Shown: piece after piece, positions 22,512 through 46,810 of the stretch | Position numbering within the stretch: the stretch's first letter is position 1 | How the letters are laid out: each line of letters starts with the position of its first letter | Program-made: the position numbers and the translations under genes | DNA from: Escherichia phage JLBYU19 | DNA: 49,897 bases | Strand: one strand, 5' to 3' | Sequence record: OK272489.1 | The notes under the pieces: model-generated | Told to the model about the DNA's origin: nothing | The model's input: the letters and a program-made list of their open reading frames with translations, nothing else | The model's database searches: none

Positions 22512-22539
22512 CAGGCATCTAACCAAAGGAGGATTAACA

Positions 22540-23067: not shown

Positions 23068-24635
23068 TGATCATATGGGAAGATTTGACGGCGGCGCAAA
23101 AGCGAGCCATTAAAGAAATCAGTGAGCATTCATTCGAAAAGATGATCAGAATCTGGTTTCAGTTATTGCAGGGGCAAAAATTCCAGAGCAACTGGCATTT
23201 TAGCTTATTGTGCAGTGAGGTAGAGAAGATCATCAATGGAGAGTCGCAGAATGTGATTTTCAACATTACGCCAGGTAGCGGTAAGACTGAGATTTTCTCG
23301 ATCCACATGTCACCCTACGCGTCATTGAAAAGTCGGAAGGTGAGAAACCTTAACCTTTCGTTTAGTGATGGACTTGTCCAGCAAAACAGCAACAGGATAA
23401 AGGAGATTATCGGTTCTCCTGAGTGGCAAGAGCTATGGCCAGGAAAACTGGCAAAGGCGAGCGCAAAAGATCTCATAGTTACGGATGGCGGCAAGGTTAA
23501 ATTGCAAGTTAACTCACGTTCTATTGGCGGACAGGTAACAGGTTTGCGTGGCGGCTATATGGACGATGGTTTTACTGGTATGCTGGTTCTGGACGATCCA
23601 GACAAGCCGGATGATATGCTTTCTAAGGTCAAGCGTGAGGCGATCCACATGCGGTTAAAAAACACAGTGCGATCGCGTCGAATGAAAGACACTACGCCGA
23701 TTGTTATGGTGCAACAGCGACTACACGTTAATGATTCCACCTGGTTCATGCTTAATGGCGGAATGGGTGGTATTGAGTTTAAAGTCGTGAGCATTCCGGC
23801 GCTGGTTACGAAAGAATACCGCGAATCGCTTCCTGATTGGTTGAAGCCTGAATTTGATCGTGATGTGCTGTCAAGTAAGCCAGTGATGATAGATGGCGTT
23901 GCTCATTATTCATTTTGGCCTGCGAAGGAAAGCGCGGAGGAGTTGCTTGCATTGCGCAATGCAGATCCTTACACGTTCTCCAGCCAATACCAACAGCAAC
24001 CAATCGCGCTGGGCGGGAACGTGTTTAAAACAGAGTGGTTCCAGTATTACGGCAGCGGCGAAAAATGCGCACTTCCTAAACCGGATCGCTTTGAATACAC
24101 ATTTATTACTGGAGATACCGCGCAGAAGGCCGGAGAGCTTAACGACTATTCTGTTTTTTGTTATTGGGGGATGTATAAGAATCGCGTTTACTTCATTGAT
24201 GGCATTCGCGGAAAGTGGGAAGCGCCGGATCTTGAATTAAATTTTATTGCCTTCGTTAATCAGTGCTGGAAGCGCAATAAGGAGTGTGGCAGCTTGCGAC
24301 GTATCCACATTGAGGATAAGGCCAGCGGCACTGGTTTGATTCAGGGGGCCAAAAAGAAGATCCCGATTGATATAAATCCCGTTCAGCGAAGCAACGACAA
24401 GGTAACGAGAGCAATGGACGCCGCGCCAGTAATGAGGGCCGGACGTGTGGCACTGCCAGAAAATCACCCAATGCTGCCTGAGATACTGGCAGAGGTTGCA
24501 GCATTCACTTTTGATGATTCTCATCCCCATGATGATATTGTCGATAATATAGTTGATGCTGTTAACGTCGAAATGAACTTGGCAGATGATCCGGTGGCAA
24601 GGATGAAAAAGCTGGCTGGTCTACGCAATAAATAG
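23067..24635 (+). CDS. terminase large subunit
   Basis: 522 aa; Walker A-like NITPGSGKT; position and size. Confidence 0.8.
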   Translation: MIIWEDLTAAQKRAIKEISEHSFEKMIRIWFQLLQGQKFQSNWHFSLLCSEVEKIINGESQNVIFNITPGSGKTEIFSIHMSPYASLKSRKVRNLNLSFSDGLVQQNSNRIKEIIGSPEWQELWPGKLAKASAKDLIVTDGGKVKLQVNSRSIGGQVTGLRGGYMDDGFTGMLVLDDPDKPDDMLSKVKREAIHMRLKNTVRSRRMKDTTPIVMVQQRLHVNDSTWFMLNGGMGGIEFKVVSIPALVTKEYRESLPDWLKPEFDRDVLSSKPVMIDGVAHYSFWPAKESAEELLALRNADPYTFSSQYQQQPIALGGNVFKTEWFQYYGSGEKCALPKPDRFEYTFITGDTAQKAGELNDYSVFCYWGMYKNRVYFIDGIRGKWEAPDLELNFIAFVNQCWKRNKECGSLRRIHIEDKASGTGLIQGAKKKIPIDINPVQRSNDKVTRAMDAAPVMRAGRVALPENHPMLPEILAEVAAFTFDDSHPHDDIVDNIVDAVNVEMNLADDPVARMKKLAGLRNK

Positions 24636-24650
24636 CACTAATTGCTAAAA
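24631..24650 (+). promoter_or_regulatory. conserved junction element (variant AATAGCACTAATTGCTAAAA)
   Basis: atypical: TATAAT only 5 nt downstream (24656-24661), then a terminator hairpin before portal gene. Confidence 0.4.
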
Positions 24651-24664
24651 AGTTATATAATCAA

Positions 24665-24690
24665 GGCTGGATTTTTCCAGCCTTTTTTAT
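24665..24690 (+). terminator. intrinsic terminator between terminase and portal genes
   Basis: GGCTGGA-ttttt-CCAGCC hairpin + T6. Confidence 0.6.
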
Positions 24691-24705
24691 TATGGAGATT
24701 TGACG

Positions 24706-25998
24706 ATGAGTGAAAAAACAAGGCTAGTTAAGGCCGATGGATACAACGAGATTTTCAAGGGCAGCAAGGGCAATGGGCGTGTGGAGTTGCCTTTCTTTAT
24801 GCAAGGGTTCGAATACACCACGCACGCTGATTTTTACATTCGCGACGGCCTAGCAAAACGAATCATCGACGTTGTTCCAGAAGAAATGGTGACGCCTGGA
24901 TTTAATATTGACGGCGTGGAAGACGAGGAAAGTTTTAGATCTTTGTGGGATGAGAAGAGACTAAACGATAAAATCATTGATGCGCTTTGCTGGTCGCGTC
25001 TTTTTGGTGGCGCTGCAATCGTAGCAATCGTCCAGGATGGCAGGTCGTTAAAGTCACCTGTAGCGCCTGGTGCAATCCTTGAAGATGTTCGCGTTTACGA
25101 TCGCTTTCAGGTTAGGGTAGAAAAGCGCGAAACTAATCCACGCAAGGTAAGATATGGTGAGCCATTAATTTACACCATTTCACCTGGTGCCGACTTGCCA
25201 GAATACCAGGTTCACTATTCGCGAGTCTGTATTATCGACGGTGAGCGGCTACCAAATCAGCGGCGTCAATCAAATGATGGGTGGGGTGAGTCGATCCTGA
25301 ATAAGAGACTTGTTGAGGCTATTTGTGATTATAACTACTGCGAAAACTTAGCAACTCAATTGTTGCGACGTAAGCAACAGGCGGTATGGAAAGTTAAAGG
25401 TCTTGCTGATCTTTGTGATGATGATGATGGTGTTAGTGCCGCACGTTTGCGACTTGCTCAAGTTGATGATGAGGGTGGCGTAGGCCGTGCGATCGGCATT
25501 GATGCGGAAGATGAGGAATATGATGTTTTAAATTCTGATATTTCTGCCGTCGATTCGTTCTTGGAAAAGAAGATGGATCGCATTGTATCTCTTTCCGGCA
25601 TCCATGAAATCATCCTCAAAAACAAGAACGTTGGCGGTGTTAGCGCGAGCCAAAACACGGCGCTTGAAACCTTCTCCAAGCTGATCGACAGAAAGCGAAA
25701 GGAAGAATACAAACCAATCCTTGAATTTCTGATCCCGTTCCTGATTCAAGAGGAAGAATGGAGTATTCAGTTTGCGCCGTTAAGCGTTCCCAGCGAAAAG
25801 GACCAGGCCGAGATCTTGAACAAGAACATTGATTCTTTGAGCAAGGCTATTGACGGTCAATTCATGGATACAGAGGAGGCGCGCGACACATTGCGAGCCA
25901 TTGCGCCTAACGTTAAACTAAAAGACGGCAATAACATTAAATTACCTGAGCAGGACGTAGAGCCGGAGCCAGGAACAACCGAGGGTAGCAATCAATGA
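24706..25998 (+). CDS. portal protein
   Basis: 430 aa from ATG 24706 (GGAG RBS); follows terminase. Confidence 0.6.
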   Translation: MSEKTRLVKADGYNEIFKGSKGNGRVELPFFMQGFEYTTHADFYIRDGLAKRIIDVVPEEMVTPGFNIDGVEDEESFRSLWDEKRLNDKIIDALCWSRLFGGAAIVAIVQDGRSLKSPVAPGAILEDVRVYDRFQVRVEKRETNPRKVRYGEPLIYTISPGADLPEYQVHYSRVCIIDGERLPNQRRQSNDGWGESILNKRLVEAICDYNYCENLATQLLRRKQQAVWKVKGLADLCDDDDGVSAARLRLAQVDDEGGVGRAIGIDAEDEEYDVLNSDISAVDSFLEKKMDRIVSLSGIHEIILKNKNVGGVSASQNTALETFSKLIDRKRKEEYKPILEFLIPFLIQEEEWSIQFAPLSVPSEKDQAEILNKNIDSLSKAIDGQFMDTEEARDTLRAIAPNVKLKDGNNIKLPEQDVEPEPGTTEGSNQ

Positions 25999-26750
25999 TA
26001 GTGAAAGGCGTCGTTAAACAATGGCGCTTTCCTGAAGCAAGCGAGCGGCAATTGCGCCGCTCAATTCAGGAGGCGATAAGGGATCTTGTTGTGCTGATGC
26101 GCAGCAAAACAAAGGAAATGAAATTTGACGCGGACACCGAAGAAATCAACGCCGCAGAGGATGAGATTAGTAGCTTCGCGTTAAAGCTAATAGCTGGCAT
26201 CGCCGCATCACTTCCGGCTATCGGTCTTGCTGTTTATAAATTCAACTCGAAGCAATTTATTAACGTAGCCAAATCAACGGGAGGCAAGTCAAATTCAGCC
26301 GTTATCATCCTTATGGCTATTGGGGCCAATGCGAATGAGAGTTGGTATAGGACGCTATACGGTCAATGGCATGACATGACGATCGCATCTCTTCAAAAGC
26401 TATTTGGAAACATCGTGTCTGACTGGTCAACCAATATTAGATTGGCAAACTTTCGCGGAATGAGAGATAGCCAGGTTAATGAATTGGCTGGTAAGAGGTT
26501 CGCAGTGTATAGCTCTTGGGGTAAGACAAGGGCGGAAAACATCATAGGCGCTTGGAATAGTAGACTCATGCGCCAGCGTCTTTATGATTCAAAAGTAACT
26601 CATTATTTTTGGCATGGTATGCTTGATGACAGAGAGCGATTGCAGCATGTACAATGGGAAGGTAAGCGCATTGCGCTAGATTCTGAACATGATTTTCCTG
26701 GTGAGCCTTTCGGTTGTCGTTGTTGGGCCATACCAGATTGGAACAGTTAA
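25995..26750 (+). CDS. head morphogenesis / minor head protein
   Basis: 251 aa; start overlaps portal stop; position between portal and scaffold. Confidence 0.45.
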   Translation: MIVKGVVKQWRFPEASERQLRRSIQEAIRDLVVLMRSKTKEMKFDADTEEINAAEDEISSFALKLIAGIAASLPAIGLAVYKFNSKQFINVAKSTGGKSNSAVIILMAIGANANESWYRTLYGQWHDMTIASLQKLFGNIVSDWSTNIRLANFRGMRDSQVNELAGKRFAVYSSWGKTRAENIIGAWNSRLMRQRLYDSKVTHYFWHGMLDDRERLQHVQWEGKRIALDSEHDFPGEPFGCRCWAIPDWNS

Positions 26751-26760
26751 GAGGTATTAA

Positions 26761-27876
26761 ATGAAGGCAAAACAAAGATTTGATAGCGCCAAAGTAAAGG
26801 CGCACTTTGATGATAACGGGTTTTTAGTTGATCGCCCTATCGTGGCGCGAATTGGTTTACAAGTCTATCAGACTCCTTTCGGTGAGCGCCGAGAATTTCG
26901 CCCTGCGTCAGAAGTATTCAAGGCCGACTCGCTCGCCACCTTTGCAGGGAAGCCGGTCACGGTTGGTCACGTCACGGTAACGCCAGAAAATGCCGAAAAG
27001 GTTGTGGTTGGTTCTTGTGCTGGCGCTGGTGTGCCTAACGGGATCGGCGTAGAGGTTCCGTTAAGCATTTACTCAAAACGAGCAATCGAAAGCGCAAAGA
27101 AGCGAGACACGGCGGAAATTTCAGTTGGTTATACATCGGTTGATATTGATAAACCAGGCTGGGGCAATAATAAAACTGGTGAGTACGTTTTCGATGAGGA
27201 CGTTAGCGAAGACTGGAAACCTGATTCTCCTGATTGGGTTAAGTTTGATGCAATCCAGACTGAAATCAAGGTAAACCACATCGCGTTAGTTTTCCGAGGT
27301 CGAGCTGGCATTGCAAAATTAAACCTTGATAGCCAGCAAGATTTTCCGTATAGTGACGACGTTATTAACAACAAAGAGGATCAAATCATGACTGTAAAAA
27401 TTAAACTGGATGGCGCTGTAGAGTTTGACGTGCCGAAAGCGGTTGCGGATCACATTGAATCACTGAAAGCTGATACCAAAGCGCAGAAAGAAAAGGCTGA
27501 CAGCCTAGAAGCTGAGCGAGACGCACTGCAAACCAAAGTAGATGGCATTCAGGATCAGATTGATGCCGCAGTCAAGAAGGCCAAAGAAGATGCCGAGCAA
27601 TATGCTCAATTAGTGGCAGACGCTAAAGAGTTAGGCATCAAGTGCGACGGCCTGGATGCGAAAGCAATCAAGGTTGCATACATCAAGGAAGTTATGGGCA
27701 ATGACGTTTCTGATAAAACTGATGCCTATATCGAAACAGCTTTCGACATCGCCAAAAACTCTGATAAAATGGCGGCGCAGCGTAAGAGCATTAAAGGTGA
27801 CTCTTTCGCGAATGAAAAGCAGGATGACGCAGGTTCTAAGCTGAATCCTAACGCTCGTTTTGAGAAACTGAAATAA
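26761..27876 (+). CDS. capsid scaffolding protein (possibly with N-terminal protease-like domain)
   Basis: 371 aa; C-terminal half is a charged coiled coil (KADSLEAERDALQTKVDGIQDQIDAAVKKAKED). Confidence 0.5.
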   Translation: MKAKQRFDSAKVKAHFDDNGFLVDRPIVARIGLQVYQTPFGERREFRPASEVFKADSLATFAGKPVTVGHVTVTPENAEKVVVGSCAGAGVPNGIGVEVPLSIYSKRAIESAKKRDTAEISVGYTSVDIDKPGWGNNKTGEYVFDEDVSEDWKPDSPDWVKFDAIQTEIKVNHIALVFRGRAGIAKLNLDSQQDFPYSDDVINNKEDQIMTVKIKLDGAVEFDVPKAVADHIESLKADTKAQKEKADSLEAERDALQTKVDGIQDQIDAAVKKAKEDAEQYAQLVADAKELGIKCDGLDAKAIKVAYIKEVMGNDVSDKTDAYIETAFDIAKNSDKMAAQRKSIKGDSFANEKQDDAGSKLNPNARFEKLK

Positions 27877-27888
27877 GGAGTAATTAAA

Positions 27889-28398
27889 ATGGCTAAAATT
27901 GGAGCAAGTTATTTTGACACTATGGCGCGTGCGCTTCCTGGTCAGGTATCCGACACGTCAGCATATAACATCGACGGCGCTTGCGTTCTTGACAAGGAAG
28001 ACGGCATCCCAATCCTGGTTGGCGTGGCTGTTAAGCTAAAAGGCGTTGACTCAATGGGTAACAAGCTGATCGACTCCATTTCCGCTGGAGGTGATGTTCC
28101 TTATGGCGTTGGCATCCGCTCTCACTTTCAAACCACGGCTGATAATGGTCGAATGGTTTATGAGGTTGGCGGCGGAATCAACGTTATGACAGAGGGCCGC
28201 GTTTGGATGATTGTCGATGATTCAGATAAGGCCAAAAAGCCATCGTATCGCGAGCCTGTAAAAATTGATGAAAACACTGGCAAGGTGAAAAGTGGTGGCG
28301 CTATCAATACCAACTGGATTTACACGGGAGATAAAACCACATTTGGAACTGGCGAAGATGTGTTGACTTTGTTTGAAGTTCAGGTTTTCCCAAGCTAA
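27889..28398 (+). CDS. capsid decoration/cement-like protein (paralog 1)
   Basis: 169 aa; AGGAG RBS; motifs YNIDG, GRVW, WIYTGD shared with next ORF; followed by terminator. Confidence 0.45.
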   Translation: MAKIGASYFDTMARALPGQVSDTSAYNIDGACVLDKEDGIPILVGVAVKLKGVDSMGNKLIDSISAGGDVPYGVGIRSHFQTTADNGRMVYEVGGGINVMTEGRVWMIVDDSDKAKKPSYREPVKIDENTGKVKSGGAINTNWIYTGDKTTFGTGEDVLTLFEVQVFPS

Positions 28399-28403
28399 AA
28401 TTA

Positions 28404-28432
28404 AGGCGCTCGCTTGAGCGCCTTTTTTATTA
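28404..28432 (+). terminator. intrinsic terminator after decoration-like paralog 1
   Basis: AGGCGCTCG-cttg-AGCGCCT hairpin + T6. Confidence 0.6.
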
Positions 28433-28448
28433 TGTAAGGAGAAATGAA

Positions 28449-29006
28449 ATGGCTAAAGATTATTCATCTGTTATGGGTCTTTCTTGCCCTGGTTGTTTGG
28501 TTGACTCTACTCGCTACAATATTGATGGAACTGGCGTTTGTGGTTCTGAGTCGATTATTGCTGGTAAGGTTGTTTTCTTCAAAGAGAGAGTAGAAGGTTA
28601 TAGCATATTTGTTGATCATAAAGAGCATGATGCGGTTGTTGCTGGCGTCGCGCTAAGGAGCAACATAACAACGACAGTTAACGAGGAAGACGGGTATTCA
28701 GACTACAAGGAAGGAGACGCCATCAACATTTTGACAAGAGGTGTTGTATGGTGTGTAACTCAAACAATTGAATCTCCTCCTGAACATGGCGATCTTGTTT
28801 ATGTTAACAATGATGGCTTTGTAGCAAAGAGTGACGGGGATGAAATCGTCGATGGCTGGATTTTTACTGGTGACTTCTACAAGTTTGATGAAACAATAAA
28901 CATAGTAGGAGTAAGGATAACGCCGCTTCATCATAGAAAATACCTTCTTACTGGTGCGATAATTGAGGCTGAAAATGGCTACATAGAGGGGAACAGAGAC
29001 GATTAA
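28449..29006 (+). CDS. capsid decoration/cement-like protein (paralog 2)
   Basis: 185 aa; AGGAG RBS; motifs YNIDG, RGVVW, WIFTGD. Confidence 0.45.
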   Translation: MAKDYSSVMGLSCPGCLVDSTRYNIDGTGVCGSESIIAGKVVFFKERVEGYSIFVDHKEHDAVVAGVALRSNITTTVNEEDGYSDYKEGDAINILTRGVVWCVTQTIESPPEHGDLVYVNNDGFVAKSDGDEIVDGWIFTGDFYKFDETINIVGVRITPLHHRKYLLTGAIIEAENGYIEGNRDD

Positions 29007-29232
29007 TAACGTTCAATTAAAGGTAACGGTTGTTCCTACTTGGGCTGATGACAAAACGGGTCAGTGGACAATTACAAACGAGCAAGATCCAAAGGTTGCC
29101 AGCGTTAGCCGTACAGGTCTTGTTGTTCCTACTGGTGTAGGAGGCAGAGTTAACGTCAACTGGACTGCTAATGATGGTTCTGGAGTTGCTGACCAGTTTG
29201 ATATTGTATTTAAGAAAACCGCTGGCGAATAA
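28987..29232 (+). CDS. Ig-like (Big_2-type) domain segment lacking its own start codon (+1 frame)
   Basis: 81-codon open frame overlapping the last 18 nt of 28449..29006; reads VQLKVTVVPTW...KVASVSRTGLVVPTGVGGRVNVNWTANDGSGVADQFDIVF; no start codon before the domain. Confidence 0.45.
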   Translation, partial: RGTETINNVQLKVTVVPTWADDKTGQWTITNEQDPKVASVSRTGLVVPTGVGGRVNVNWTANDGSGVADQFDIVFKKTAGE

Positions 29233-29257
29233 CTGATAGCATAAAAAAACATTGCAC

Positions 29258-29276
29258 GTTTAACAAAAAGTGCTAT
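29258..29276 (-). promoter_or_regulatory. conserved junction element, oriented away from adjacent capsid gene
   Basis: plus strand reads GTTTAACAAAAAGTGCTAT; flanked by inverted repeat TGATAGCA (29234) / TGCTATCA (29271). Confidence 0.45.
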
Positions 29277-29282
29277 CATCTA

Positions 29283-29308
29283 GGCCGTTACATTTAACGG
29301 CCTTTTTT
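29283..29308 (+). terminator. intrinsic terminator immediately upstream of major capsid gene
   Basis: GGCCGTT-acattt-AACGGCC hairpin + T6, directly followed by GGAGG RBS. Confidence 0.6.
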
Positions 29309-29322
29309 ATGGAGGAAGCAAA

Positions 29323-30294
29323 ATGGCTAAAAAATACGATGAATTAGATGCTACCATTGTAGCAAATCATTTACAGGTTCAGGGCGTTAAGGGTGATGCT
29401 TCTGATATGGGTATTTGGACCGCTCAAGAGCTACACAAGATCCGTTCAACGGCATACGAGAAAGAGTATCCGGCAGGTTCCGCACTTCGCGTATTCCCTG
29501 TAACAAACGAGCTTTCTGATACTGATAAGACTTTTGAGTATCAGACTTTTGATAAGGTTGGCTACGCGAAAATTATCGCCGACTACACCGACGATCTGCC
29601 GACCGTGGACGCGCTGATGACTTCTGAATTTGGCAAGGTGTTCCGCCTGGGTAACGCTTTTCTGATCTCCATTGATGAGATTAAAGCGGGTCAGCGAACT
29701 GGCAAGAGCCTGTCAACTCGCAAGGCTAACGCTGCGCAAAATGCGCATGATCAGTTGATTAACTTCCTGGTGTTCAAAGGTTCCAAGCCTCATAAGATCG
29801 TTTCCGTTTTCGATCACCCTAACCTTACGAAAATTGTTTCTAAAGGATGGATGAGCCAGGATGGAAACACCAAGTTCCCTGATGTGGCAAGCGATGAACT
29901 GGAGGCTGCAATCGAGACTATCGAGGAAGTAACCAAAGGTCAGCACCGCGCGACTAACATCCTGATCCCGCCGTCCATGCGTAAAGTCTTGACGGTTCGA
30001 ATGGAAAATACCACTGAAAGTTATCTTGAATACTTCCAGAAGCAAAACGGCGGCATCACTATCGACTCTATCGCAGAGCTTGAGGATATTGACGGCAAAG
30101 GTACGAAAGGTTGCTTGGTTTACGAAAAAGATCCAATGAACATGAGCATTGAGATTCCAGAAGCGTTTAACATGCTTCCGGCGCAGCCAAAAGACCTTCA
30201 TTTCAAGGTTCCTTGCACTTCCAAGTGTACTGGCCTTACTATTTACCGTCCGTTTACGATGGTGCTTATTACTGGCTTGAAAAAGTCAACTTAA
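29323..30294 (+). CDS. major capsid protein
   Basis: 323 aa; GGAGG RBS; flanked on both sides by intrinsic terminators (own unit); position in head module. Confidence 0.6.
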   Translation: MAKKYDELDATIVANHLQVQGVKGDASDMGIWTAQELHKIRSTAYEKEYPAGSALRVFPVTNELSDTDKTFEYQTFDKVGYAKIIADYTDDLPTVDALMTSEFGKVFRLGNAFLISIDEIKAGQRTGKSLSTRKANAAQNAHDQLINFLVFKGSKPHKIVSVFDHPNLTKIVSKGWMSQDGNTKFPDVASDELEAAIETIEEVTKGQHRATNILIPPSMRKVLTVRMENTTESYLEYFQKQNGGITIDSIAELEDIDGKGTKGCLVYEKDPMNMSIEIPEAFNMLPAQPKDLHFKVPCTSKCTGLTIYRPFTMVLITGLKKST

Positions 30295-30305
30295 TTAGAT
30301 AACAT

Positions 30306-30337
30306 GGGGAGCCTTAAGGGTTCCCCTTTTTTTATTT
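30306..30337 (+). terminator. intrinsic terminator after major capsid gene
   Basis: GGGGAGCC-ttaag-GGTTCCCC hairpin + T7. Confidence 0.65.
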
Positions 30338-30351
30338 ACGGAGTACACAAA

Positions 30352-30618
30352 ATGAGCAAAACTTTAAAACTTAAAGTAACTGGCGTTTGCATGATTATTA
30401 TGGACGGTAAGCGTTATCACCCTGGTGATGAGATTGAAATTGAATCTGATCGCATTAATGATTCCGCAATTGAATACCTGATCGCTCGCGGCGATGTGGA
30501 AGTTAAAGACAATTCCGAAATTAACGAGCAAATCAAGGAGAAAGCGGAGAAGAAGCGCAAAAAAGATCCTACCGAGGGCAAGAGCCGCAAAGAGCTAGAG
30601 GATGGCGGCGAATATTAA
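30352..30618 (+). CDS. hypothetical structural-module protein
   Basis: 88 aa from ATG 30352 (GGAG RBS). Confidence 0.4.
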
Positions 30619-30667
30619 TAATTGGGGCGCTTATGCGCCCCTTGTCATATCTGGAGAAAACAAAATG
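30616..30667 (+). repeat. leader element shared with ssb leader (46277-46325)
   Basis: GAATATTAATAATTGGGGCGCTTATGCGCCCCTTGTCATATCTGGAGAAAACAAAATG vs GAATAATAAACGGGGCGCTTGCGCCCCTTTTGTCATAGGAGAAAACAAAATG. Confidence 0.55.
30626..30650 (+). terminator. hairpin/attenuator in leader of connector gene
   Basis: GGGGCGC-ttat-GCGCCCC followed by TTGTCAT (weak U-tract). Confidence 0.35.
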
Positions 30668-31084
30668 GTAGATGAATTTTACACAGACGCTGAAATCGTT
30701 CAGCAAATCGTAAAGTTGGCCCCACCAATGCAGCAGGTTGATCCCGATTTAATTGTGGCATGGATTGAGCTTGCTAAAGAATTTGTTTGCAAAAAACGGT
30801 TTAAAAACTCATACCCGAAAGCGGTTGCGCTTTACACTCTTCACCTTATGACCTTAGACGGGGCAATGAAACAGGAAGGTGAAAGCGTAGAAAGCTATTC
30901 CCGCCGCGTTGCATCGTTCACTCTGACTGGTGAGTTTAGTCAGACGTTTGATCGAATTTCTTCCGATACAAGCGGAAAGCAGATCCGACAAACGCCGTGG
31001 GGCAAAATGTACGAAGTGTTAAACCGTAAGCACGGTGGCGGCTTTGGACTTGTAACTGGATTGCGCCGGAGATGTTGCCGATGA
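30665..31084 (+). CDS. putative head-tail connector protein
   Basis: 139 aa from ATG 30665 (GGAG RBS); position between capsid and tail genes. Confidence 0.4.
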
Positions 31085-31455
31085 ATTACAATGAGATTGC
31101 AAGAATGGCTACTGCTGGGATTAACTTTTTCAGCGACGCTAACGGTATGTTTAAGTGCATCACGCAGCAGGGAGGGGTTGAGATTATCGGCGGAGAGGAA
31201 GTTGCCAAGCCTGAGATTTCAGTGATGATAAAGGGGCTTGTTAGATCTCCGAGGACTAGAGAGGTTGACGGTGAAACGATCCGAGTAACCGACAAGTTGG
31301 GGGTATTCACCAATGAAACTGAGATCAAAAATGGTTATCAGATTGAAATTGATGGCGATCGTTATGTTGTCGTTGAAGCAAGACCAGTCAGACAGACTAA
31401 CATCACGGCAGCTTATCGTCCGATATTAAGGAGGATTGCAGTGCATGGCGGATAA
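31081..31455 (+). CDS. putative head-tail joining protein
   Basis: 124 aa; ATGA overlap with upstream gene. Confidence 0.4.
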
Positions 31456-31888
31456 TTATAAGATCAGGGAATTTCACGGTGATATAAGCAGGTGGATTGA
31501 TTCAGTAAGCAGCGGCCTTGTTGATTGCGTTGAAATGTTCGCGACAAACGTCCACGAGGATCTTGTAAAGCGTTCGCCAGTTGATACGGGCCGATATAAA
31601 GCTAACTGGCAGGTAACAGCAAACAAGCCGCCGCTATATGCTCTCAATCAATACGATCGCGATGGTAGTAAAACCATTGCAGAAGGCAAGCGAGCAATAT
31701 ATGCAATCATGCGGGGCGGTGGAGCGGTGCGGTCAATCTATTTTTCAAACATGCTTATTTACGCCAATGCGCTTGAATACGGGCATTCAAAACAAGCGCC
31801 GTCCGGCGTGCTGGGAATCGTGGCGGTAAAGCTGCGATCCTATATGACTAAGGCAATAAAGGATTCGAGGGCAAAAAATGCACTATGA
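31445..31888 (+). CDS. neck protein, HK97 gp10-like
   Basis: 147 aa; VDTGRYKANW motif; GGAGG RBS. Confidence 0.45.
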   Translation: MADNYKIREFHGDISRWIDSVSSGLVDCVEMFATNVHEDLVKRSPVDTGRYKANWQVTANKPPLYALNQYDRDGSKTIAEGKRAIYAIMRGGGAVRSIYFSNMLIYANALEYGHSKQAPSGVLGIVAVKLRSYMTKAIKDSRAKNAL

Positions 31889-32279
31889 TTTAATGTTAGC
31901 GGCAAGAAAGGCGCTGGCGGAGGAATATGAATCACGATTCAAGATCGCCTATGAAAACGTTGATTTTGTTCCGCCTGGTGATGGTTCGATGTGGTTAAAA
32001 TTTGACTACATGGAAGCCGACACAGATCGCATATCTCTTGATAGAAAATGCGTTTCTTATATCGGATTGGTTCAGGTTGGAATTGTTATGCCTCCTGGCG
32101 GCGGCACTGATAAAGCGCGTTTGCTGGCTAAAGAGATTGCGAGATTTTTCTATGATGGTAGAATGTTTGAAACTGGCTATATTAGCGATGGGGCAAAGGT
32201 CCACACATTACTAAAAAGTGAAACAGGTTGGTTCTTACCGATCCGTTTCAGTGTTAGGCTTGACACAAAGGAGGAATAA
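31878..32279 (+). CDS. putative tail terminator/completion protein
   Basis: 133 aa; overlaps upstream gene by 11 nt; precedes major tail gene. Confidence 0.4.
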   Translation: MHYDLMLAARKALAEEYESRFKIAYENVDFVPPGDGSMWLKFDYMEADTDRISLDRKCVSYIGLVQVGIVMPPGGGTDKARLLAKEIARFFYDGRMFETGYISDGAKVHTLLKSETGWFLPIRFSVRLDTKEE

Positions 32280-32281
32280 TC

Positions 32282-32944
32282 ATGCACTTGCCTAATGGTT
32301 CTCAAATTTTCATCGGCGTTAATATGGGTGAGCCAATTAGCGCGACTCAAATCAGCAATGCTGATAATCCTGTTTTTACAACCGAAAACACTCAAAGCAT
32401 CAAAAAAGGCGCTTATGTTCTTATTGAAACATCTTCTTGGGGCAAACTTGTTAGTCGAGTGCTTCGAGTTAAGGAAGTATCAGATAATGCAAGTGTTACT
32501 CTTGAGGGTGTTAGCACTAAAGATACAAACGTATTTCCAGAAGGACAGAACACAGCAACTTTCCGAGAAGTGAAATCTTGGGTAGAGGTTCCTTGCGTAC
32601 AGGATCTTGCGCAGGACGGCGGCGAGCAACAGTATTACACTTATCAGTGTTTGGCTGATGACCGGGAGCAGCAGTTGCCGACCCACAAGAGCGCGGTTTC
32701 TCTTACCTACACTTTCGCTCATGAATATGATAACCCGATTTATCCGATCTTGCGCGAGGCTGAGGAATCCGGCGACGTAACCGCTTTGCGTATGTACGTG
32801 CCGAAAGCTAAAGAGATGCGTTGCTGGGCTGGCGTATTGTCTTTTAATGACATTCCGCAAACAACTATGAACGAAATGGAAACTGTTTCCCTTTCTGTAT
32901 CTCTGAAAGGCCGATTCACGTTCTTACCTTCCGACGTTAAGTAA
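32282..32944 (+). CDS. major tail protein
   Basis: 220 aa; AAGGAGG RBS; followed by strong terminator; upstream of G/GT chaperone genes. Confidence 0.6.
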   Translation: MHLPNGSQIFIGVNMGEPISATQISNADNPVFTTENTQSIKKGAYVLIETSSWGKLVSRVLRVKEVSDNASVTLEGVSTKDTNVFPEGQNTATFREVKSWVEVPCVQDLAQDGGEQQYYTYQCLADDREQQLPTHKSAVSLTYTFAHEYDNPIYPILREAEESGDVTALRMYVPKAKEMRCWAGVLSFNDIPQTTMNEMETVSLSVSLKGRFTFLPSDVK

Positions 32945-32947
32945 AAC

Positions 32948-32970
32948 AAGGGGCGTTGCGCCCCTTTTTT
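32948..32970 (+). terminator. intrinsic terminator after major tail gene
   Basis: GGGGCG-ttg-CGCCCC hairpin + T6. Confidence 0.7.
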
Positions 32971-33010
32971 CATTCCTGTAAAATCAATCTATCAAATAAA
33001 TTAATTCCAC

Positions 33011-33029
33011 TTTTAACAAAAAGTGCTAT
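33011..33029 (-). promoter_or_regulatory. conserved junction element, oriented away from adjacent tail chaperone gene
   Basis: plus strand reads TTTTAACAAAAAGTGCTAT immediately followed by AAGGAG RBS of 33044 gene. Confidence 0.45.
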
Positions 33030-33043
33030 AAGGAGATCTTAAG

Positions 33044-33361
33044 ATGGCAAAGATGAAACTAACGTTAGGCCCACTGCCTGATTTTAAGCTGCCTGTTTCT
33101 TTCGTGCTTCCAAATGGTGATGAGCAAGTTATTGTTTTTACCGTGCGCCACAAGAAGGCAAGCGAAATTCACGAACGATACACGGCAGAAAAGCCGATGA
33201 GCGACGTAGAAATGATCACCTTCCTTGCTTCCGGTTGGGATCTGGAAGATGAATTTAACGAGGAAAACGTTGCTAAATTGCTGGATTATTACCCGTCTGC
33301 GTCATTATCGCTGACTGGTCATTATATGAAAGCACTTGCGGGGCAGCGGGTAAAAAACTAA
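33044..33361 (+). CDS. tail assembly chaperone (gpG-like)
   Basis: 105 aa; AAGGAG RBS; slippery heptamer A_AAA_AAC sits immediately before its stop. Confidence 0.7.
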   Translation: MAKMKLTLGPLPDFKLPVSFVLPNGDEQVIVFTVRHKKASEIHERYTAEKPMSDVEMITFLASGWDLEDEFNEENVAKLLDYYPSASLSLTGHYMKALAGQRVKN

Positions 33362-33678
33362 AGCGGGCGGTTTACCTGTTTTACCTCAAGCCGCCAACTG
33401 ACGCACAATTAGAGGCCGTCGGCCTATCCCGTTCAGACTACGAAGGGGAGGAGCCGCCGGAGGTAATTTTTGATGAATCAATGTTTCAATCTTGGGATCT
33501 GTTTTGCGCTATGCAGACGCAATGGAGATCGACTAGCGGCAGTGTGTATGGGTTCGACTATAACGTTTTGCCTATGCTTTTTGACATTTACAAGATTGAG
33601 GATCGGGAGATGGCGCTAAATGATTTGCGCATCATGGAACAAAAGGCGCTAGAAATGATTCATTCAAACAAAACATAA
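33277..33678 (+). CDS. tail assembly chaperone T-domain (-1 frame, expressed as G-T fusion)
   Basis: -1 frame open from 33277, overlapping gpG-like ORF; QSWDLFCAMQTQW region typical of phage tail assembly protein T. Confidence 0.6.
   Translation: MAGLLPVCVIIADWSLYESTCGAAGKKLKRAVYLFYLKPPTDAQLEAVGLSRSDYEGEEPPEVIFDESMFQSWDLFCAMQTQWRSTSGSVYGFDYNVLPMLFDIYKIEDREMALNDLRIMEQKALEMIHSNKT
33352..33358 (+). other. -1 programmed frameshift slippery heptamer A_AAA_AAC (G to G-T)
   Basis: heptamer in frame of gpG-like ORF 3 nt before its stop; -1 frame continues open to 33678. Confidence 0.6.
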
Positions 33679-33698
33679 GCGCCGCGAGGCGCTTTTTT
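33677..33698 (+). terminator. intrinsic terminator/attenuator before tape measure gene
   Basis: AAGCGCC-gcga-GGCGCTT hairpin + T6. Confidence 0.55.
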
Positions 33699-33717
33699 AA
33701 TATCTGGAGGTTTTAAA

Positions 33718-36399
33718 ATGGCTGAAAAATACGCTGGCCTAACGCTAGGCGTTGACGTGTCGCAGGTCAACAATGCTGTTAAATCATTGCAGCAATTCAA
33801 GAAGGCAAACGACGACGCAAAAAAAAGCGTTAATGAATTTGTTGATTCTGAGGTTGTGGCCCGACAGCAAGCAAAACAGCTTGCCGAAGAACTGGCGCGC
33901 CAGAAAGCAGAATTTAAGAAAATCCAGGAGTCAATTGATCCCACTGCATCAAAGATGGATAAGCTGCGAAAGGCAGCGACACAGCTTGATGCGCTATGGA
34001 AAAAGGGCGTTGTTCCTGATCAGACTTTTTTTGAGCTTGGGGCAATTCTTGAGACGCAGCAAAACAAGCTGATCGCAACCAAAAAAGCGATGACAGAGGA
34101 AGGCCGCGCGGCGCTTGAGGAATCAAAGAACAAGGCGCGTGCAGCGGAAGAGGCTAAAAAATTCGTCCAGGCTTTGCGTGAGCAGGAAGAAGCAGCAGGA
34201 AAAAGCAAGTCTGAATTGCTGGAAATGAAAGCGGCACAGCTTGGAGTTAGCCAGGAGGCAGCACCTTACATCGCAAGACTGAAAGAGCAGGAAAAGCAGA
34301 TCCAGAAACTTGGGATTTCTACAGGCCAATACAAACAAGCAATGGCGCAATTGCCAATGCAGATCACAGACGTGGTGACTTCACTTGCTTCTGGTATGCC
34401 AGTTTGGTTGGTCGCAGTCCAGCAGGGTGGACAGATCAAGGATTCTTTTGGTGGTGCATCCAATGCTTTAAAAGCGTTGCTATCTTTCCTGAATCCGGCA
34501 AACGTGGCGTTTGGCTTACTTTCAGGCACGCTGGCAATTGCTGCATATAATGCCTACAAAGCACAGACAGAGCTTGAGGCAATTAAAAAAACCGTTCAGG
34601 AAACAACTGGCTTGAGTGGTGAGTTTGCCGAAAAGATTGCTATAGGAATCCAGGAGCTTTCCGACAAGACAGGCGAAAGCGCCGAAGATCTGGCAAAGGC
34701 TTACATAACAACGAAAGACGGCGCGAGCGAGGCGATTAAAAAACTGGTTGACGTTGGCATGACTTATGATGACGCAAAAAAGAAAGTCAACGAGTACAAG
34801 GGCGCGTCTAGCTTTGTCAGCTTGAATAACGAAATTGCAAACCACAAAAACAAAGTCCTTGAGTTGGGCGATTCGTGGTATGAGGTTTTGAAAGCGAAGC
34901 GTGATTACGCTTCCCCGTCCGGCGGCCTGTTAGGTAAGGAGCTTGGCTATGTTAACCCTATGCTTAAGTTTGCACTTAACACTTATGAAGACATTGGAAA
35001 GGTCGTAAAAGATGCGAATAAGGACATGGCGGAACGAGCGGAGCGAATCGACAAAGAAAACCTGGCCTTAAACAGAGTGCGCGCAGCACAGGAGGCTTTA
35101 AACAAAGCCATTGAGGATCAGAAAAATGTGGCGAGTTCGGCTGATGAAGAACTGAAAAAGCGCGCGGCTGAAAACGTGGAGTTTAGGCGCAAAGAGCTTG
35201 AGGAAATCAAGAAGCAGGAGCAGAAAAAGAAAGAGGCTAAAGGGGGAATAGTTCGCGGCCCTACTGAGCAGCTTGATAAAGAGTTGTACGTTTTAAAGGC
35301 GCAACTGGAAACTCTTAAAGAGCATCGCACTGTTAACGATGTTATTTCTCGCCAGCGTAAATCTTTATGGAGCATCGAAAAGCAGATCGAGATCCTGGAG
35401 AATGCGCAGAGCAAGCGTAAATTGACCGGAGCGGAACAGGCGCTACTAAACGAGCAAAAGGCCGTTCTTGAAATGGCAAGACAAAAAGCTGAGCTAGGGG
35501 ATCAGATTGTTTTGCAGGAGCGCAAAAACAAGCTGGAGCAAGATAGTCTTAAGTTTATCCGTGAAACTGAGGCTGCTATTGATGCGATTGGCCTTAAGCA
35601 ACTTGGCTACACTGAAAAGCAGATCGAGCGTGAGCTAGAGTTACGCAAGCTGCGCACCGACTACGAGGCGCAAGGCGGAAGCGTTAGCGACGAAGTTTTT
35701 CAGGAAATGGAGACGAAACTTAAGCTGTATTACCAGGCACAAGACGAGGCGCAAGGCAACTGGTTAGCCGGAGCAAAGAACGCATGGGAGCTATTCGCGG
35801 AAGATGCAAACAATGCCTATGGCAATGTTCAGCAGATCGCAAGCGAGGCGTTAAACGGCCTTACAAACCAATTAGCGAATTTTATCGCTACTGGCAAGGC
35901 AAACTTTAAAGACTTCTCGACGGCTATCATCAAAATGATTATCCAGATGATCACGAAAATGGTCGTCTTTAATGCGTTATCTGGCCTGATGGGTGGTCAA
36001 ACCTGGACGATGGGGAGCTTGCTTAAGAATATTGGCGGATTTGCTGGCGGTGGATACACTGGAGACGGCGGGAAGTATGAGCCAGCCGGAATTGTCCATA
36101 AAGGTGAATTTGTCATGACGAAGGAGGCGACGCAGCGTATCGGGGTAGGAAACTTGTACCGCATGATGCGAGGCTATGCTAACGGCGGCGTTGTTGGTAG
36201 TTCCGGCTATACTGGCGGTGTAGCTGTCACTGGTGGAGCACCTCAATTTAACATTGGGGGGATTGATGTTAGCATCAATAACGGCAGCGATCCGAAGGGC
36301 ATCGAAACTGGTGTTAAGATGATCTTTACTGATATGATTAAACGTTCCTGTATGCAGGGCGGCGAGGTTTACGAATTTGTTATGAGCAAGCGAGGTTGA
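33718..36399 (+). CDS. tape measure protein
   Basis: 893 aa; extensive coiled coil, Gly-rich C-terminal region; GGAGG RBS. Confidence 0.85.
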   Translation: MAEKYAGLTLGVDVSQVNNAVKSLQQFKKANDDAKKSVNEFVDSEVVARQQAKQLAEELARQKAEFKKIQESIDPTASKMDKLRKAATQLDALWKKGVVPDQTFFELGAILETQQNKLIATKKAMTEEGRAALEESKNKARAAEEAKKFVQALREQEEAAGKSKSELLEMKAAQLGVSQEAAPYIARLKEQEKQIQKLGISTGQYKQAMAQLPMQITDVVTSLASGMPVWLVAVQQGGQIKDSFGGASNALKALLSFLNPANVAFGLLSGTLAIAAYNAYKAQTELEAIKKTVQETTGLSGEFAEKIAIGIQELSDKTGESAEDLAKAYITTKDGASEAIKKLVDVGMTYDDAKKKVNEYKGASSFVSLNNEIANHKNKVLELGDSWYEVLKAKRDYASPSGGLLGKELGYVNPMLKFALNTYEDIGKVVKDANKDMAERAERIDKENLALNRVRAAQEALNKAIEDQKNVASSADEELKKRAAENVEFRRKELEEIKKQEQKKKEAKGGIVRGPTEQLDKELYVLKAQLETLKEHRTVNDVISRQRKSLWSIEKQIEILENAQSKRKLTGAEQALLNEQKAVLEMARQKAELGDQIVLQERKNKLEQDSLKFIRETEAAIDAIGLKQLGYTEKQIERELELRKLRTDYEAQGGSVSDEVFQEMETKLKLYYQAQDEAQGNWLAGAKNAWELFAEDANNAYGNVQQIASEALNGLTNQLANFIATGKANFKDFSTAIIKMIIQMITKMVVFNALSGLMGGQTWTMGSLLKNIGGFAGGGYTGDGGKYEPAGIVHKGEFVMTKEATQRIGVGNLYRMMRGYANGGVVGSSGYTGGVAVTGGAPQFNIGGIDVSINNGSDPKGIETGVKMIFTDMIKRSCMQGGEVYEFVMSKRG

Positions 36400-36752
36400 T
36401 AATGAAACTGGATCAGTTTAAGTGGTGTACGCAGGTTCAGAATGGTGGCGGGGCCATGACGTCATCGAATAACGATCGAGAGATTGCATTCGGTAACGGA
36501 TACACACAGGTAGCATCTGGAGGTTTTAACACAATCCGGCGAGAGTTCAGCATTGTTTACGCTGGGCTTGATTACAGAGATGTTGTCAAGTTCCTGAATG
36601 AGCACAGGCTAAAACCTTTCTTGTGGATCATGCCAGATGGAAGCCCTGGATTGTTTAGGGTGAAAAGCGGTAGCGTCGGCCTTACTCCATTGTCGCCAAC
36701 CGTTCAGGAAGTAAAAGCCACTTTTACGGAGCAATTTACATCAATGCAGTAA
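36396..36752 (+). CDS. minor tail protein (lambda gpM-like)
   Basis: 118 aa directly after tape measure gene; followed by terminator. Confidence 0.65.
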   Translation: MIMKLDQFKWCTQVQNGGGAMTSSNNDREIAFGNGYTQVASGGFNTIRREFSIVYAGLDYRDVVKFLNEHRLKPFLWIMPDGSPGLFRVKSGSVGLTPLSPTVQEVKATFTEQFTSMQ

Positions 36753-36756
36753 TTTA

Positions 36757-36781: not shown

Positions 36782-36814
36782 TTGATGTTACAATGAGCAA
36801 AAAGGAGGTAGAAA

Positions 36815-45622: not shown

Positions 45623-46276
<654 letters not shown>

Positions 46277-46279
<3 letters not shown>

Positions 46280-46325
46280 TAAACGGGGCGCTTGCGCCCC
46301 TTTTGTCATAGGAGAAAACAAAATG
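46277..46325 (+). repeat. leader element shared with connector-gene leader (30616-30667)
   Basis: same stop-hairpin-TTGTCATA-GGAGAAAACAAA-ATG arrangement. Confidence 0.55.
46285..46308 (+). terminator. hairpin/attenuator in ssb leader
   Basis: GGGGCGC-tt-GCGCCCC followed by TTTTGTCAT. Confidence 0.4.
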
Positions 46326-46775: not shown

Positions 46776-46783
46776 TAACAAAA

Positions 46784-46810
46784 AGCCCCGCATATGCGGG
46801 GCTTTTTTTA
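46784..46810. terminator. bidirectional terminator between ssb and leftward fiber cluster
   Basis: AGCCCCGC-atat-GCGGGGCT hairpin flanked by A5 and T7. Confidence 0.7.

What the first reader, a model, noticed from the sequence alone, without database searches (positions are those of the whole stretch)
30616..30667. A 58-bp stop-hairpin-RBS leader is shared by the connector gene and ssb
The sequence from the upstream stop through a GGGGCGC/GCGCCCC hairpin, TTGTCATA and GGAGAAAACAAAATG is nearly identical at 30616-30667 and 46277-46325, two otherwise unrelated loci. A related ATATCTGGAG leader also precedes the tape measure gene (33699-33717). This may be a shared translational operator or attenuator, or a recombination-prone module.
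Basis: seen in the sequence. Interest (0 to 1): 0.55.

Follow-up and report, generated by a model that had tools for sequence, protein, structure and literature searches.

The report
Two look-alike terminator-hairpin gene leaders
Two gene leaders in this T1-like coliphage really are near-identical, but they are ordinary hairpin-plus-ribosome-site spacers found throughout the phage family, and their extra similarity exists in one genus only, so a shared control switch is unlikely.

Summary
30616-30667 and 46277-46325 align at 45 of 54 columns (self-BLAST E=2e-6). Their score of 61 far exceeds the other 90 leader pairs tested in this genome (mean 16.7, maximum 30).

The window is a Warwickvirus (Drexlerviridae, T1-like). 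Both sites have the family's usual intergenic layout: stop codon, GC stem-loop, T-rich tail, GGAG, A-rich spacer, ATG. The two hairpins are ancient and independent. Each is kept at its own junction in nearly all of about 45 family genomes, with G·U wobbles that pair only in the sense RNA, compensatory changes at the ssb site, and UUCG, GNRA and CUUG tetraloops. The orthologues are already annotated as predicted terminators (TLS T36B; both sites in phage G29-2).

The extended identity (TTGTCATA plus GGAGAAAACAAAATG) occurs only in Warwickvirus. Within-genome A-versus-B scores are 57-61 there and 11-23 in 40 other genomes. The shared part also varies at site A within the genus. This points to a lineage-specific homogenisation, probably a short conversion patch, and not to a shared operator.

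One by-product: a σ70 promoter embedded in the erf 3' end (46224-46253) is conserved family-wide, which puts the ssb hairpin in a dedicated ssb 5' UTR.

Interest is low.

The parts
30616..30621 (+). Stop codon TAA of the DUF7444 gene (30352-30618), followed by a second in-frame TAA
   Evidence: an 88-aa form of this gene is annotated in EC167, tonnikala and atuna
30624..30641 (+). Hairpin A: GGGGCGC-UUAU-GCGCCCC, 7 G-C pairs. It is orthologous to TLS terminator T36B and to an ARNold-predicted terminator in G29-2.
   Evidence: (-16.8 kcal/mol, z -5.4)
30642..30652 (+). Tail TTGTCATATCT. This is a degraded U-tract with only two leading T. The (T)CATATC(T/A)GGAG context is ancestral at this junction, from Warwickvirus to the Klebsiella-phage clade.
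30653..30667 (+). SD GGAG, an 8-nt A-rich spacer, and the ATG that is the true start of the DUF4054 virion protein (30665-31084). The 15-mer is identical to 46311-46325.
   Evidence: the upstream extension from ATG 30602 is closed by in-frame stops in many relatives
46224..46253 (+). σ70-type promoter embedded in the erf 3' end: TTGACA, 18 nt, TAAAAT. The predicted start near 46260 puts hairpin B in the ssb 5' UTR.
   Evidence: 67 of 67 family sequences have GTTG-N20-GTAnAAT. Both Val codons are invariant at their 4-fold sites in 18 of 18 representatives sharing less than 85% identity.
46277..46282 (+). Stop codon TAA of erf (45626-46279), followed by a second in-frame TAA
46285..46300 (+). 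Hairpin B: GGGGCG-CUUG-CGCCCC. It is conserved between erf and ssb family-wide, with compensatory changes.
   Evidence: (-12.9 kcal/mol)
46301..46310 (+). Tail TTTTGTCATA. The U4 run and the GTCATA are derived in Warwickvirus and absent from sister clades.
46311..46325 (+). SD GGAG, 8-nt A-rich spacer and ATG of ssb (46323-46775)
46780..46807 (+). Strong terminator (12-bp stem plus T-run) that closes the ssb unit
33677..33720 (+). It has the same architecture and shares only a chance-level 10-mer.

Best explanation
Sites A and B are two separate members of the ordinary class of intercistronic GC stem-loops that fill almost every intergenic gap of T1-like phage genomes. Each is followed by a canonical GGAG Shine-Dalgarno, an 8-nt A-rich spacer and the ATG.

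**Hairpin A** follows the small DUF7444 gene, downstream of the major capsid gene. It is the orthologue of a predicted intrinsic terminator. It most likely acts as a leaky terminator and/or a 3'-end mRNA stabiliser that lowers expression of the low-copy connector and tail genes relative to the head genes. In this lineage its U-tract is degraded, so read-through should be high.

**Hairpin B** lies between erf and ssb, downstream of a conserved promoter embedded in erf. It is therefore both the 3' end of the exo-erf message and a 5'-UTR stem-loop of a dedicated ssb transcript. In most of the family it has no U-tract, so its conserved role is probably RNA stability or insulation, not termination.

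Both hairpins start 5 nt after the stop codon, inside the footprint of a terminating ribosome. Translation of the upstream gene should therefore favour read-through.

**The extended identity** is a Warwickvirus-specific homogenisation of two already similar junctions. The most likely cause is a short ectopic conversion patch that copied the A-type tail and spacer onto B.

**Shown here:** the anatomy, the conservation, the sense-strand RNA signature, the genus restriction and the promoter conservation.

**Inferred:** termination or stabilisation activity, the ribosome effect and the conversion event.
For: - **Class membership.** At least 13 hairpins sit in intergenic gaps at 22467, 24663, 28403, 29282, 30306, 30624, 32948, 33677, 36756, 38891, 42543, 46285 and 46780. 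In 22000-41999 there are 37 terminator-like sites versus 20.1±4.5 expected.
- **Published background.** T1 and TLS late regions are described as units flanked by rho-independent terminators, with 21 intergenic terminators in TLS (PMC11447400). TLS T36B is the site A orthologue. G29-2 annotates both orthologues as ARNold terminators.
- **Family-wide hairpins.** Stem-loops of -10 to -16 kcal/mol are present at both junctions.
- **RNA-level signature.** G·U wobbles pair only on the + strand. Site B shows compensatory stem variants. The loops are UUCG, UACG, GNRA and CUUG.
- **No occlusion.** SD and ATG are unpaired.
- **Genus restriction.** Within-genome A-B scores are 57-61 in Warwickvirus and 11-23 in 40 other genomes. 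The composite leader occurs in only 3 Warwickvirus-like IMG/VR contigs.
- **Polarity.** TTGTCATATCTGGAG is ancestral at A. At B the tail and spacer differ from the sister clade at about 7 substitutions and 1 indel, all toward the A state.
- **Recurrence.** Near-identical terminator modules occur at other junction pairs in other genera.
- **Embedded promoter.**
Against: - No transcript data exist for any T1-like phage in the searched literature. Termination, stabilisation and the promoter are all predictions.
- Hairpin A has only two U after the stem in this genome, so it may not terminate at all.
- If hairpin B (U4 tail in this genus) terminates efficiently, it would also block transcripts from the embedded promoter. 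That fits an attenuator better than a plain terminator.
- The conversion patch would have had to use very short flanking homology (7+7 nt of stem, plus GGAG). It is also not an exact copy: a 3-nt TCT is missing and two extra T are present.
- The ancestral states are inferred from only three sister sequences.
- Site B is invariant in 7 Warwickvirus genomes. That is compatible with some extra constraint.
Confidence: 0.72

Rival explanations
1. The two leaders are a shared cis-regulatory operator in Warwickvirus. One trans-acting factor (the phage SSB in a gp32-like manner, another phage protein, or an sRNA) recognises the hairpin plus the TTGTCATA/GGAGAAAACAAAATG region and co-regulates translation of the DUF4054 protein and SSB.
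For: - Identity runs exactly from stop codon to ATG and exceeds all other leader pairs.
- Both leaders are kept across the genus, and B is invariant in 7 genomes.
- B sits in the 5' UTR of a dedicated ssb transcript behind a conserved promoter.
- A hairpin followed by an unstructured A/U-rich stretch that includes the SD loosely recalls the T4 gene 32 operator (from memory; a lead only).
Against: - There are only two sites, and no third copy at up to 3 mismatches.
- The composite is absent outside one genus, although both genes and both hairpins are family-wide.
- The shared TTGTCATA varies at A within the genus, with no change at B.
- The hairpin does not occlude the SD or AUG.
- There is no pseudoknot and no Rfam match.
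- There is no obvious logic in co-regulating a virion connector-type protein with a replication/recombination protein.
Confidence: 0.08
2. There was no recombination event. The likeness is convergence plus chance. Two junctions that already shared TAATAA stops, GGGGCGC-type stems, T-rich tails, GGAG and A-rich spacers drifted, or were each selected for efficient initiation, into the same sequence.
For: - Most shared blocks are ancestral at one or both sites. The GGGGCGC stems are old at both.
- The A spacer in the sister clade (GGAGGAAACACAATG) is only 2 substitutions from the shared 15-mer.
- The Klebsiella-phage clade has CATAGGAAAAACAATG at site B, which resembles the Warwickvirus B tail.
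- An exact 15-mer repeat is roughly expected once by chance in 50 kb (my own estimate).
Against: - About 7 substitutions and an indel at B all go toward the A state.
- Both spacers changed to the same 15-mer in the same lineage.
- The pair lies nearly 10 sd above other leader pairs.
- No other genome among 40 shows anything similar between these two junctions.
Confidence: 0.17
3. The hairpin-plus-leader is a recombination-prone module boundary, that is, micro-homology used for mosaic exchange between phages, and this is its main biological significance.
For: - Conserved intergenic hairpin and SD blocks are shared between genera.
- Repeated terminator modules occur in several genera.
- The phage encodes an exonuclease, Erf and SSB recombination set.
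Against: - The only mosaic genome in hand (L005, a Hanrivervirus-type head module in a Warwickvirus backbone) has its breakpoint near 30880, inside the DUF4054 gene and about 215 nt past the junction.
- No rearrangement joining the A and B flanks was seen in any genome.
Confidence: 0.03

Closest known systems
Predicted rho-independent terminators of T1-like phages (TLS T36A/T36B and others; T1 'transcriptons'; ARNold terminators annotated in Hanrivervirus G29-2)
   Same: - Same junctions by orthology.
- GC stem-loop a few nt after the stop codon, co-oriented with transcription and followed by the next gene's SD.
- UUCG- and GNRA-type loops.
- Site A carries a 5-7 T tail in most genera.
   Different: - In this genome the A tail has only 2 T.
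- The B orthologue is not listed as a terminator in TLS and lacks a T-run in most genera.
- The near-identity of the two leaders is specific to Warwickvirus and has not been described.
Intercistronic mRNA-stabilising stem-loops that set differential expression inside operons (for example malE-malF REP, Rhodobacter puf, pap; from general knowledge)
   Same: - A stable hairpin directly after an abundant-product gene and before lower-copy genes.
- No requirement for a U-tract.
- Acts on the sense RNA.
   Different: - No decay or processing data exist for this phage.
- The stems are short (6-7 bp).
- B also lies in the 5' UTR of a second, overlapping transcript.
T4 gene 32 autogenous translational operator
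   Same: - The gene is a phage ssDNA-binding protein.
- A structured element is followed by an unstructured A/U-rich stretch containing the SD and AUG.
   Different: - A simple hairpin, not a pseudoknot.
- The unstructured stretch is only about 22 nt.
- The leader sequence is not conserved outside one genus.
- The SSB here is an E. coli-like OB-fold protein with a DDDIPF tail, unrelated to gp32.
- Binding is untested.
Leader-terminator attenuators (promoter, short leader, terminator hairpin, gene)
   Same: At B, a conserved promoter is followed about 25 nt later by a hairpin with a U4 tail and then the ssb SD.
   Different: - There is no alternative antiterminator structure and no leader peptide. 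The 99-nt leader fold is not better than shuffles (z -0.79).
- The U-tract is absent in most relatives.

Membership tests
Intrinsic (rho-independent) terminator | Stable GC-rich stem-loop in the sense transcript | tested here: met
   A is -16.8 kcal/mol (z -5.4) and B is -12.9 kcal/mol (z -3.0). Hairpins are present family-wide. G·U wobbles pair only on the + strand.
Intrinsic (rho-independent) terminator | U-tract immediately 3' of the stem | tested here: inconclusive
   The A tail is UUGUCAUA, with 2 leading U, and the scan did not call it on the + strand. The B tail is UUUUGUCA and was called. In relatives, A has 5-7 T of 8 in many genera, while B has none in most.
Intrinsic (rho-independent) terminator | Intergenic, downstream of a stop codon and co-oriented with the genes | tested here: met
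   Both hairpins start 5 nt after the TAA. The orthologues are annotated as terminators.
Intrinsic (rho-independent) terminator | Measured 3' ends or termination in vivo or in vitro | not testable with these tools
   No transcriptome of a T1-like phage was found.
Shared translational operator / regulon motif | The same motif upstream of the regulated genes, conserved in related genomes | tested here: not met
   The composite leader occurs only in Warwickvirus. TTGTCATA varies at A within the genus. There are only two sites, and the component motifs are not enriched.
Shared translational operator / regulon motif | The structure overlaps or occludes the SD or start codon, or offers a defined protein-binding site there | tested here: not met
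   SD and AUG are unpaired in the MFE and centroid folds. The hairpin ends 10-11 nt (B) or 11-12 nt (A) before the GGAG.
T4 gene 32-type autoregulatory leader | 5' pseudoknot plus a long unstructured A/U-rich operator, with binding by the cognate SSB | tested here: inconclusive
   Only a simple hairpin was found, and there is no Rfam match. The hairpin itself is family-wide in the ssb 5' UTR. Binding is not testable here.
σ70 promoter (embedded ssb promoter, 46224-46253) | -35 and -10 hexamers at 16-19 nt spacing | tested here: met
   TTGACA, 18 nt, TAAAAT, matching 11 of 12 positions.
σ70 promoter (embedded ssb promoter, 46224-46253) | Nucleotide-level conservation beyond coding constraint | tested here: met
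   67 of 67 sequences keep TTG-N21-TAnAAT. The GTT and GTA Val codons are invariant at their 4-fold sites in 18 of 18 diverged representatives, while the spacer and neighbouring third positions vary.
σ70 promoter (embedded ssb promoter, 46224-46253) | Mapped transcription start | not testable with these tools
   No data are available.

The most novel reading that the evidence does not exclude
Across Drexlerviridae, ssb is a self-contained unit: a promoter embedded in erf, a 5'-UTR hairpin, the SD, ssb and a strong terminator. In this reading the conserved hairpin is an operator or attenuator through which SSB (or ssDNA load) tunes its own synthesis. In Warwickvirus the same leader was copied between ssb and the DUF4054 virion gene, putting a head-tail joining protein under the same control.
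Probability: 0.06. Interest if true: 0.6.

Novelty: new member of a known kind. Interest (0 to 1): 0.2.

Why it matters
This finding matters little on its own. It shows that a striking 50-nt repeat is two ordinary terminator-type hairpin leaders made alike in one genus, so it should not be read as a regulon signal.

Three practical points follow:
- Many database records mis-start the two genes. ATG 30602 reads through hairpin A, and ATG 30304 reads through the capsid-gene terminator.
- Near-identical terminator modules recur within T1-like genomes, which hints at short-patch ectopic conversion between intergenic hairpins.
- ssb appears to have its own family-conserved promoter hidden inside erf. 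That is an easy target for 5'-end mapping and bears on the open question of how T1-like phages, with very few recognisable promoters, organise transcription.

Tried and rejected
- **Rfam.** A scan of the whole window found nothing.
- **Regulon motif.** I searched for further copies of the hairpin-plus-tail, of GGAGAAAACAAAATG, of ATATCTGGAG and of TTGTCATA. There is no third site and no enrichment; the additional 15-mer hits at 2-3 mismatches are just other SD/ATG regions.
- **Mobile leader module.** An exact-pattern scan of IMG/VR found only 3 Warwickvirus-like contigs.
- **Hairpin as mosaic breakpoint.** The L005 breakpoint lies inside the DUF4054 gene near 30880.
- **Ongoing concerted evolution.** A varies within the genus while B does not.
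- **N-terminal extension.** The idea that the DUF4054 ORF starts at 30602 and the hairpin is coding was rejected. In-frame stops occur in many relatives, and protein alignments start at or after ATG 30665.
- **Larger RNA structure around B.** The 99-nt fold is no better than shuffles (z -0.79).
- **Literature.** Searches for T1-like transcriptomes or mapped terminators found none.
- **Wasted effort.** One script printed a whole locus by mistake.
- **Unused tools.** The large protein-database, structure-prediction and fold-search tools were not used, because the question concerns non-coding sequence.

Full report
**What the window is.** The window is a nearly complete genome of a T1-like siphophage. 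It is 99.7% identical over 4 kb to Escherichia phage vB_EcoS-G3B1 and 98-99.6% identical to Tuinin, tuinn, JK16, tunus and SECphi27, which belong to Drexlerviridae, Tempevirinae, genus Warwickvirus.

Site A (30616-30667) lies in the late operon, between an 88-aa DUF7444 gene (30352-30618) and a DUF4054 / PHROG 'virion structural protein' gene. That DUF7444 gene itself follows the major capsid gene. Site B (46277-46325) lies between an Erf-family annealing-protein gene (45626-46279) and ssb (46323-46775).

- Site A reads TAA TAA tt GGGGCGC ttat GCGCCCC TTGTCATA tct GGAG AAAACAAA ATG.
- Site B reads TAA TAA ac GGGGCG cttg CGCCCC tt TTGTCATA GGAG AAAACAAA ATG.
- Self-BLAST of the window gives this pair at 83% over 54 columns, E=2e-6. 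It is the sixth-best self-hit, behind repeats of another kind.
- The hairpin-plus-tail pattern has two hits and none in 100 shuffles.
- Against a fairer null of 14 leaders from the same genome with a similar terminator and/or SD-ATG layout, the A-B pair scores 61. The other 90 pairs have mean 16.7, sd 4.5 and maximum 30.
- The spans are 52 and 49 nt, not 58.
TTGTCATA alone is not enriched either.

**What the elements are.** Nearly every intergenic gap in the late and recombination regions holds a GC-rich stem-loop a few nucleotides after a stop codon, followed by the next gene's SD. These are at 22467, 24663, 28403, 29282, 30306, 30624 (A), 32948, 33677, 36756, 38891, 42543, 46285 (B) and 46780.

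This is the published picture for the family. [quoted passage not shown] TLS terminator T36B (gggcgcctcatgtagcgcctttttattat) is the orthologue of hairpin A, and T36A is the orthologue of the hairpin at 30306. The GenBank record of Hanrivervirus G29-2, the sister clade, annotates both orthologous hairpins as ARNold terminators.

Folding gives -16.8 kcal/mol for A and -12.9 kcal/mol for B. The SD and AUG are single-stranded in both cases. No Rfam family matches.

**Comparative evidence.** I fetched 80 Drexlerviridae loci that span both junctions, located the four flanking genes and extracted the junctions.
- Both junctions carry a hairpin of -10 to -16 kcal/mol in essentially every lineage, from Warwickvirus to the clade of Klebsiella-phage-like contigs, where the flanking proteins are only 40-66% identical.
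- At A the core GGCGC/GCGCC is conserved. The Klebsiella-phage clade has GGGCGC/GCGTCC, a G·U wobble that pairs only in the + strand RNA.
- At B the stems differ but stay complementary: GGGGCG/CGCCCC, GGGCGG/CCGCCC, GGGCGGC/GTCGCCC, GGCGAC/GTCGCC, and also GCGGCC/GGCCGC and GGCGGC/GCCGCC.
- The loops are the classic stable RNA tetraloops UUCG, UACG, GAAA, GCAA and CUUG.
- Both elements are therefore sense-strand RNA hairpins under selection.
- They are not the same element. A is followed by 5-7 T in most genera, which makes it a canonical terminator. B is followed by GATAAGGA, CATAGGAA or ATAAATTT in most genera, which is not a terminator tail.

**Where the extra identity comes from.** The local alignment score of A against B within one genome is 57-61 in Warwickvirus and 49 in the mosaic contig L005. 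It is 11-23 in 40 other genomes. The composite TTGTCATA(N0-3)GGAGAAAACAAAATG occurs in only three IMG/VR contigs, all Warwickvirus-like.

The alignment of A and B leaders from Warwickvirus and the nearest clades shows the following.
- The B stem is ancestral at B.
- TTGTCATATCTGGAG is ancestral at A.
- The Warwickvirus B tail and spacer (TTTTGTCATA, AAAACAAA) differ from the sister clade (TTTATTGCA, AATAAAAC) at about seven substitutions and one indel, every one toward the A state.
- The A spacer also moved two substitutions to give the common 15-mer.

In five further Warwickvirus genomes, B is invariant. A varies precisely in the shared part (CCCTTTGTCACATC, CCCCTTGTCGCATC) with no matching change at B. 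So there is no ongoing concerted evolution, and TTGTCATA is not strictly constrained at A.

Other genera show near-identical terminator modules at other junction pairs. Examples are CCCGCCTTGCGCGGGTTTTTTTGTAGCTGTAGAAT twice in L034 and L043, plus pairs in L046, L049 and L062. Occasional homogenisation of intergenic hairpin modules therefore looks recurrent in the family.

I read the A-B likeness as a past short ectopic conversion (A to B) between two already similar junctions. Convergence plus chance is the main alternative.

**Why not a shared operator or a recombination hotspot?**
- An operator shared by the two genes should be conserved where both genes and both hairpins are conserved, and it is not.
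- The shared tail drifts at A.
- The hairpin does not touch the SD.
- There is no third site.
- L005 carries a Hanrivervirus-type head module in a Warwickvirus backbone. Its breakpoint is near 30880, about 215 nt inside the DUF4054 gene and not at the hairpin.

**Gene starts.** Several records start the DUF4054 gene at ATG 30602, which reads through hairpin A. In many relatives that extension contains in-frame stops, protein alignments begin at or after ATG 30665, and other records use the short form. The DUF7444 gene is likewise sometimes started at 30304, which would put the terminator at 30306-30326 inside a CDS. The SD-supported start is 30352.

**A by-product that bears on the mechanism at B.** The promoter scan found TTGACA-18-TAAAAT (11 of 12) at 46224-46253, inside the erf 3' end. 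All 67 family sequences have GTTG-N20-GTAnAAT at a constant 18-nt spacing.

Among 18 representatives sharing less than 85% identity, the spacer and its amino acids vary freely. The two Val codons that supply the T of TTG and the A of TAnAAT are invariably GTT and GTA at their four-fold degenerate sites, while neighbouring third positions vary. This is nucleotide-level selection of the kind expected for a σ70 promoter.

The TLS paper reports only three σ70-like promoters, all of them intergenic, and this one is not among them. If it is real, ssb is a unit of its own: a promoter, a 5' UTR of about 62 nt containing the erf stop and hairpin B, the SD, ssb, and the strong terminator at 46780-46807. 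Hairpin B would then be a 5'-UTR element as well as the 3' end of the exo-erf message. This keeps a small probability alive for an ssb-specific regulatory role of hairpin B. It does not support a role shared with site A.

**Mechanism proposed.**
- Hairpin A is a leaky terminator and/or 3' stabiliser that steps expression down from the head genes to the connector and tail genes. In this lineage it is weakened by loss of the U-tract.
- Hairpin B is an intercistronic and 5'-UTR stabilising or insulating stem-loop that has gained a U4 tail in Warwickvirus.
- Both begin 5 nt after the stop codon, within the footprint of a terminating ribosome. Translation of the upstream gene should therefore promote read-through; this is inference from general knowledge.
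- The GGAG plus 8-nt A-rich spacer is simply a good initiation region.

None of this has been measured for any T1-like phage.

**Verdict.** These are known kinds of element whose orthologues are already annotated as predicted terminators. The genus-specific identity is a minor evolutionary curiosity. Interest is 0.2.

Noticed in passing
window 46224-46253 (+), inside the erf 3' end: A σ70 promoter (TTGACA-18-TAAAAT) embedded in coding sequence and conserved across the whole family. 67 of 67 sequences keep TTG-N21-TAnAAT, and the Val codons GTT and GTA are invariant at their 4-fold sites while the spacer varies. It is not among the promoters listed for TLS. It implies a dedicated ssb transcript.
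   Followed up: yes
window, at least 16 sites: 1472, 3961, 5032, 19117, 20411, 24629, 49807 (forward); 8271, 10433, 11107, 13797, 14303, 15607, 29250, 33003, 43780 (reverse): A 21-nt repeat, aaATAGCACnnnTTGnTAAAA, often followed about 22 nt later by CATAAT or TATAAT with a small GC hairpin in between. It is already described for TLS, T1 and Rtp, with function unknown (PMC11447400). The copies at 29250 and 33003 point against the late genes, like DR7 of TLS.
   Followed up: partly
window 30304-30351 and 30602-30664: Start-codon inconsistencies between database records. The long forms (ATG 30304, ATG 30602) read through the terminator hairpins at 30306-30326 and 30624-30641. The short forms (ATG 30352, ATG 30665) have GGAG sites and fit the comparative data.
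   Followed up: yes
L034 9920-9956 / 12099-12135; L043 9930 / 12063; L046 13890 / 17275; L049 2055 / 5852; L062 2868 / 6418: Other genera of the family also carry pairs of near-identical terminator modules (hairpin, T-run and a few flanking bases) at different junction pairs. This suggests recurrent homogenisation or reuse of intergenic hairpins.
   Followed up: partly
L005 (IMGVR_UViG_3300045988_032316), equivalent to window ~26700-30880: A mosaic genome. The head module up to about 215 nt inside the DUF4054 gene is Hanrivervirus-type (95-100% to L008), and the rest is Warwickvirus-type (97-100% to the window).
   Followed up: yes
window 15914-16009 and 43905-44000: Two AT-rich stretches (TTTATTTATTTAT...) that are 75% alike over about 99 nt (E=2e-6). 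Both lie at switch points between leftward and rightward gene blocks. They are possibly divergent promoter regions or origin-like regions.
   Followed up: no
window 47407-47529 and 49176-49301 (within - strand ORFs): Two tandem 63-nt (21-codon) duplications, 90% and 76% identical. They lie inside the genes downstream of ssb, which neighbouring records annotate as tail fibre or tail protein and a hypothetical protein.
   Followed up: no
junction A in L055-L081 (Klebsiella-phage clade) versus window 30645-30656: The non-coding motif CATATC(T/A)GGAG between hairpin A and the start codon is conserved between genera whose flanking protein is only 57-66% identical. It is absent from TLS-like and Rogue1-like lineages. 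No explanation was found beyond an SD context or a possible RNase E site.
   Followed up: partly
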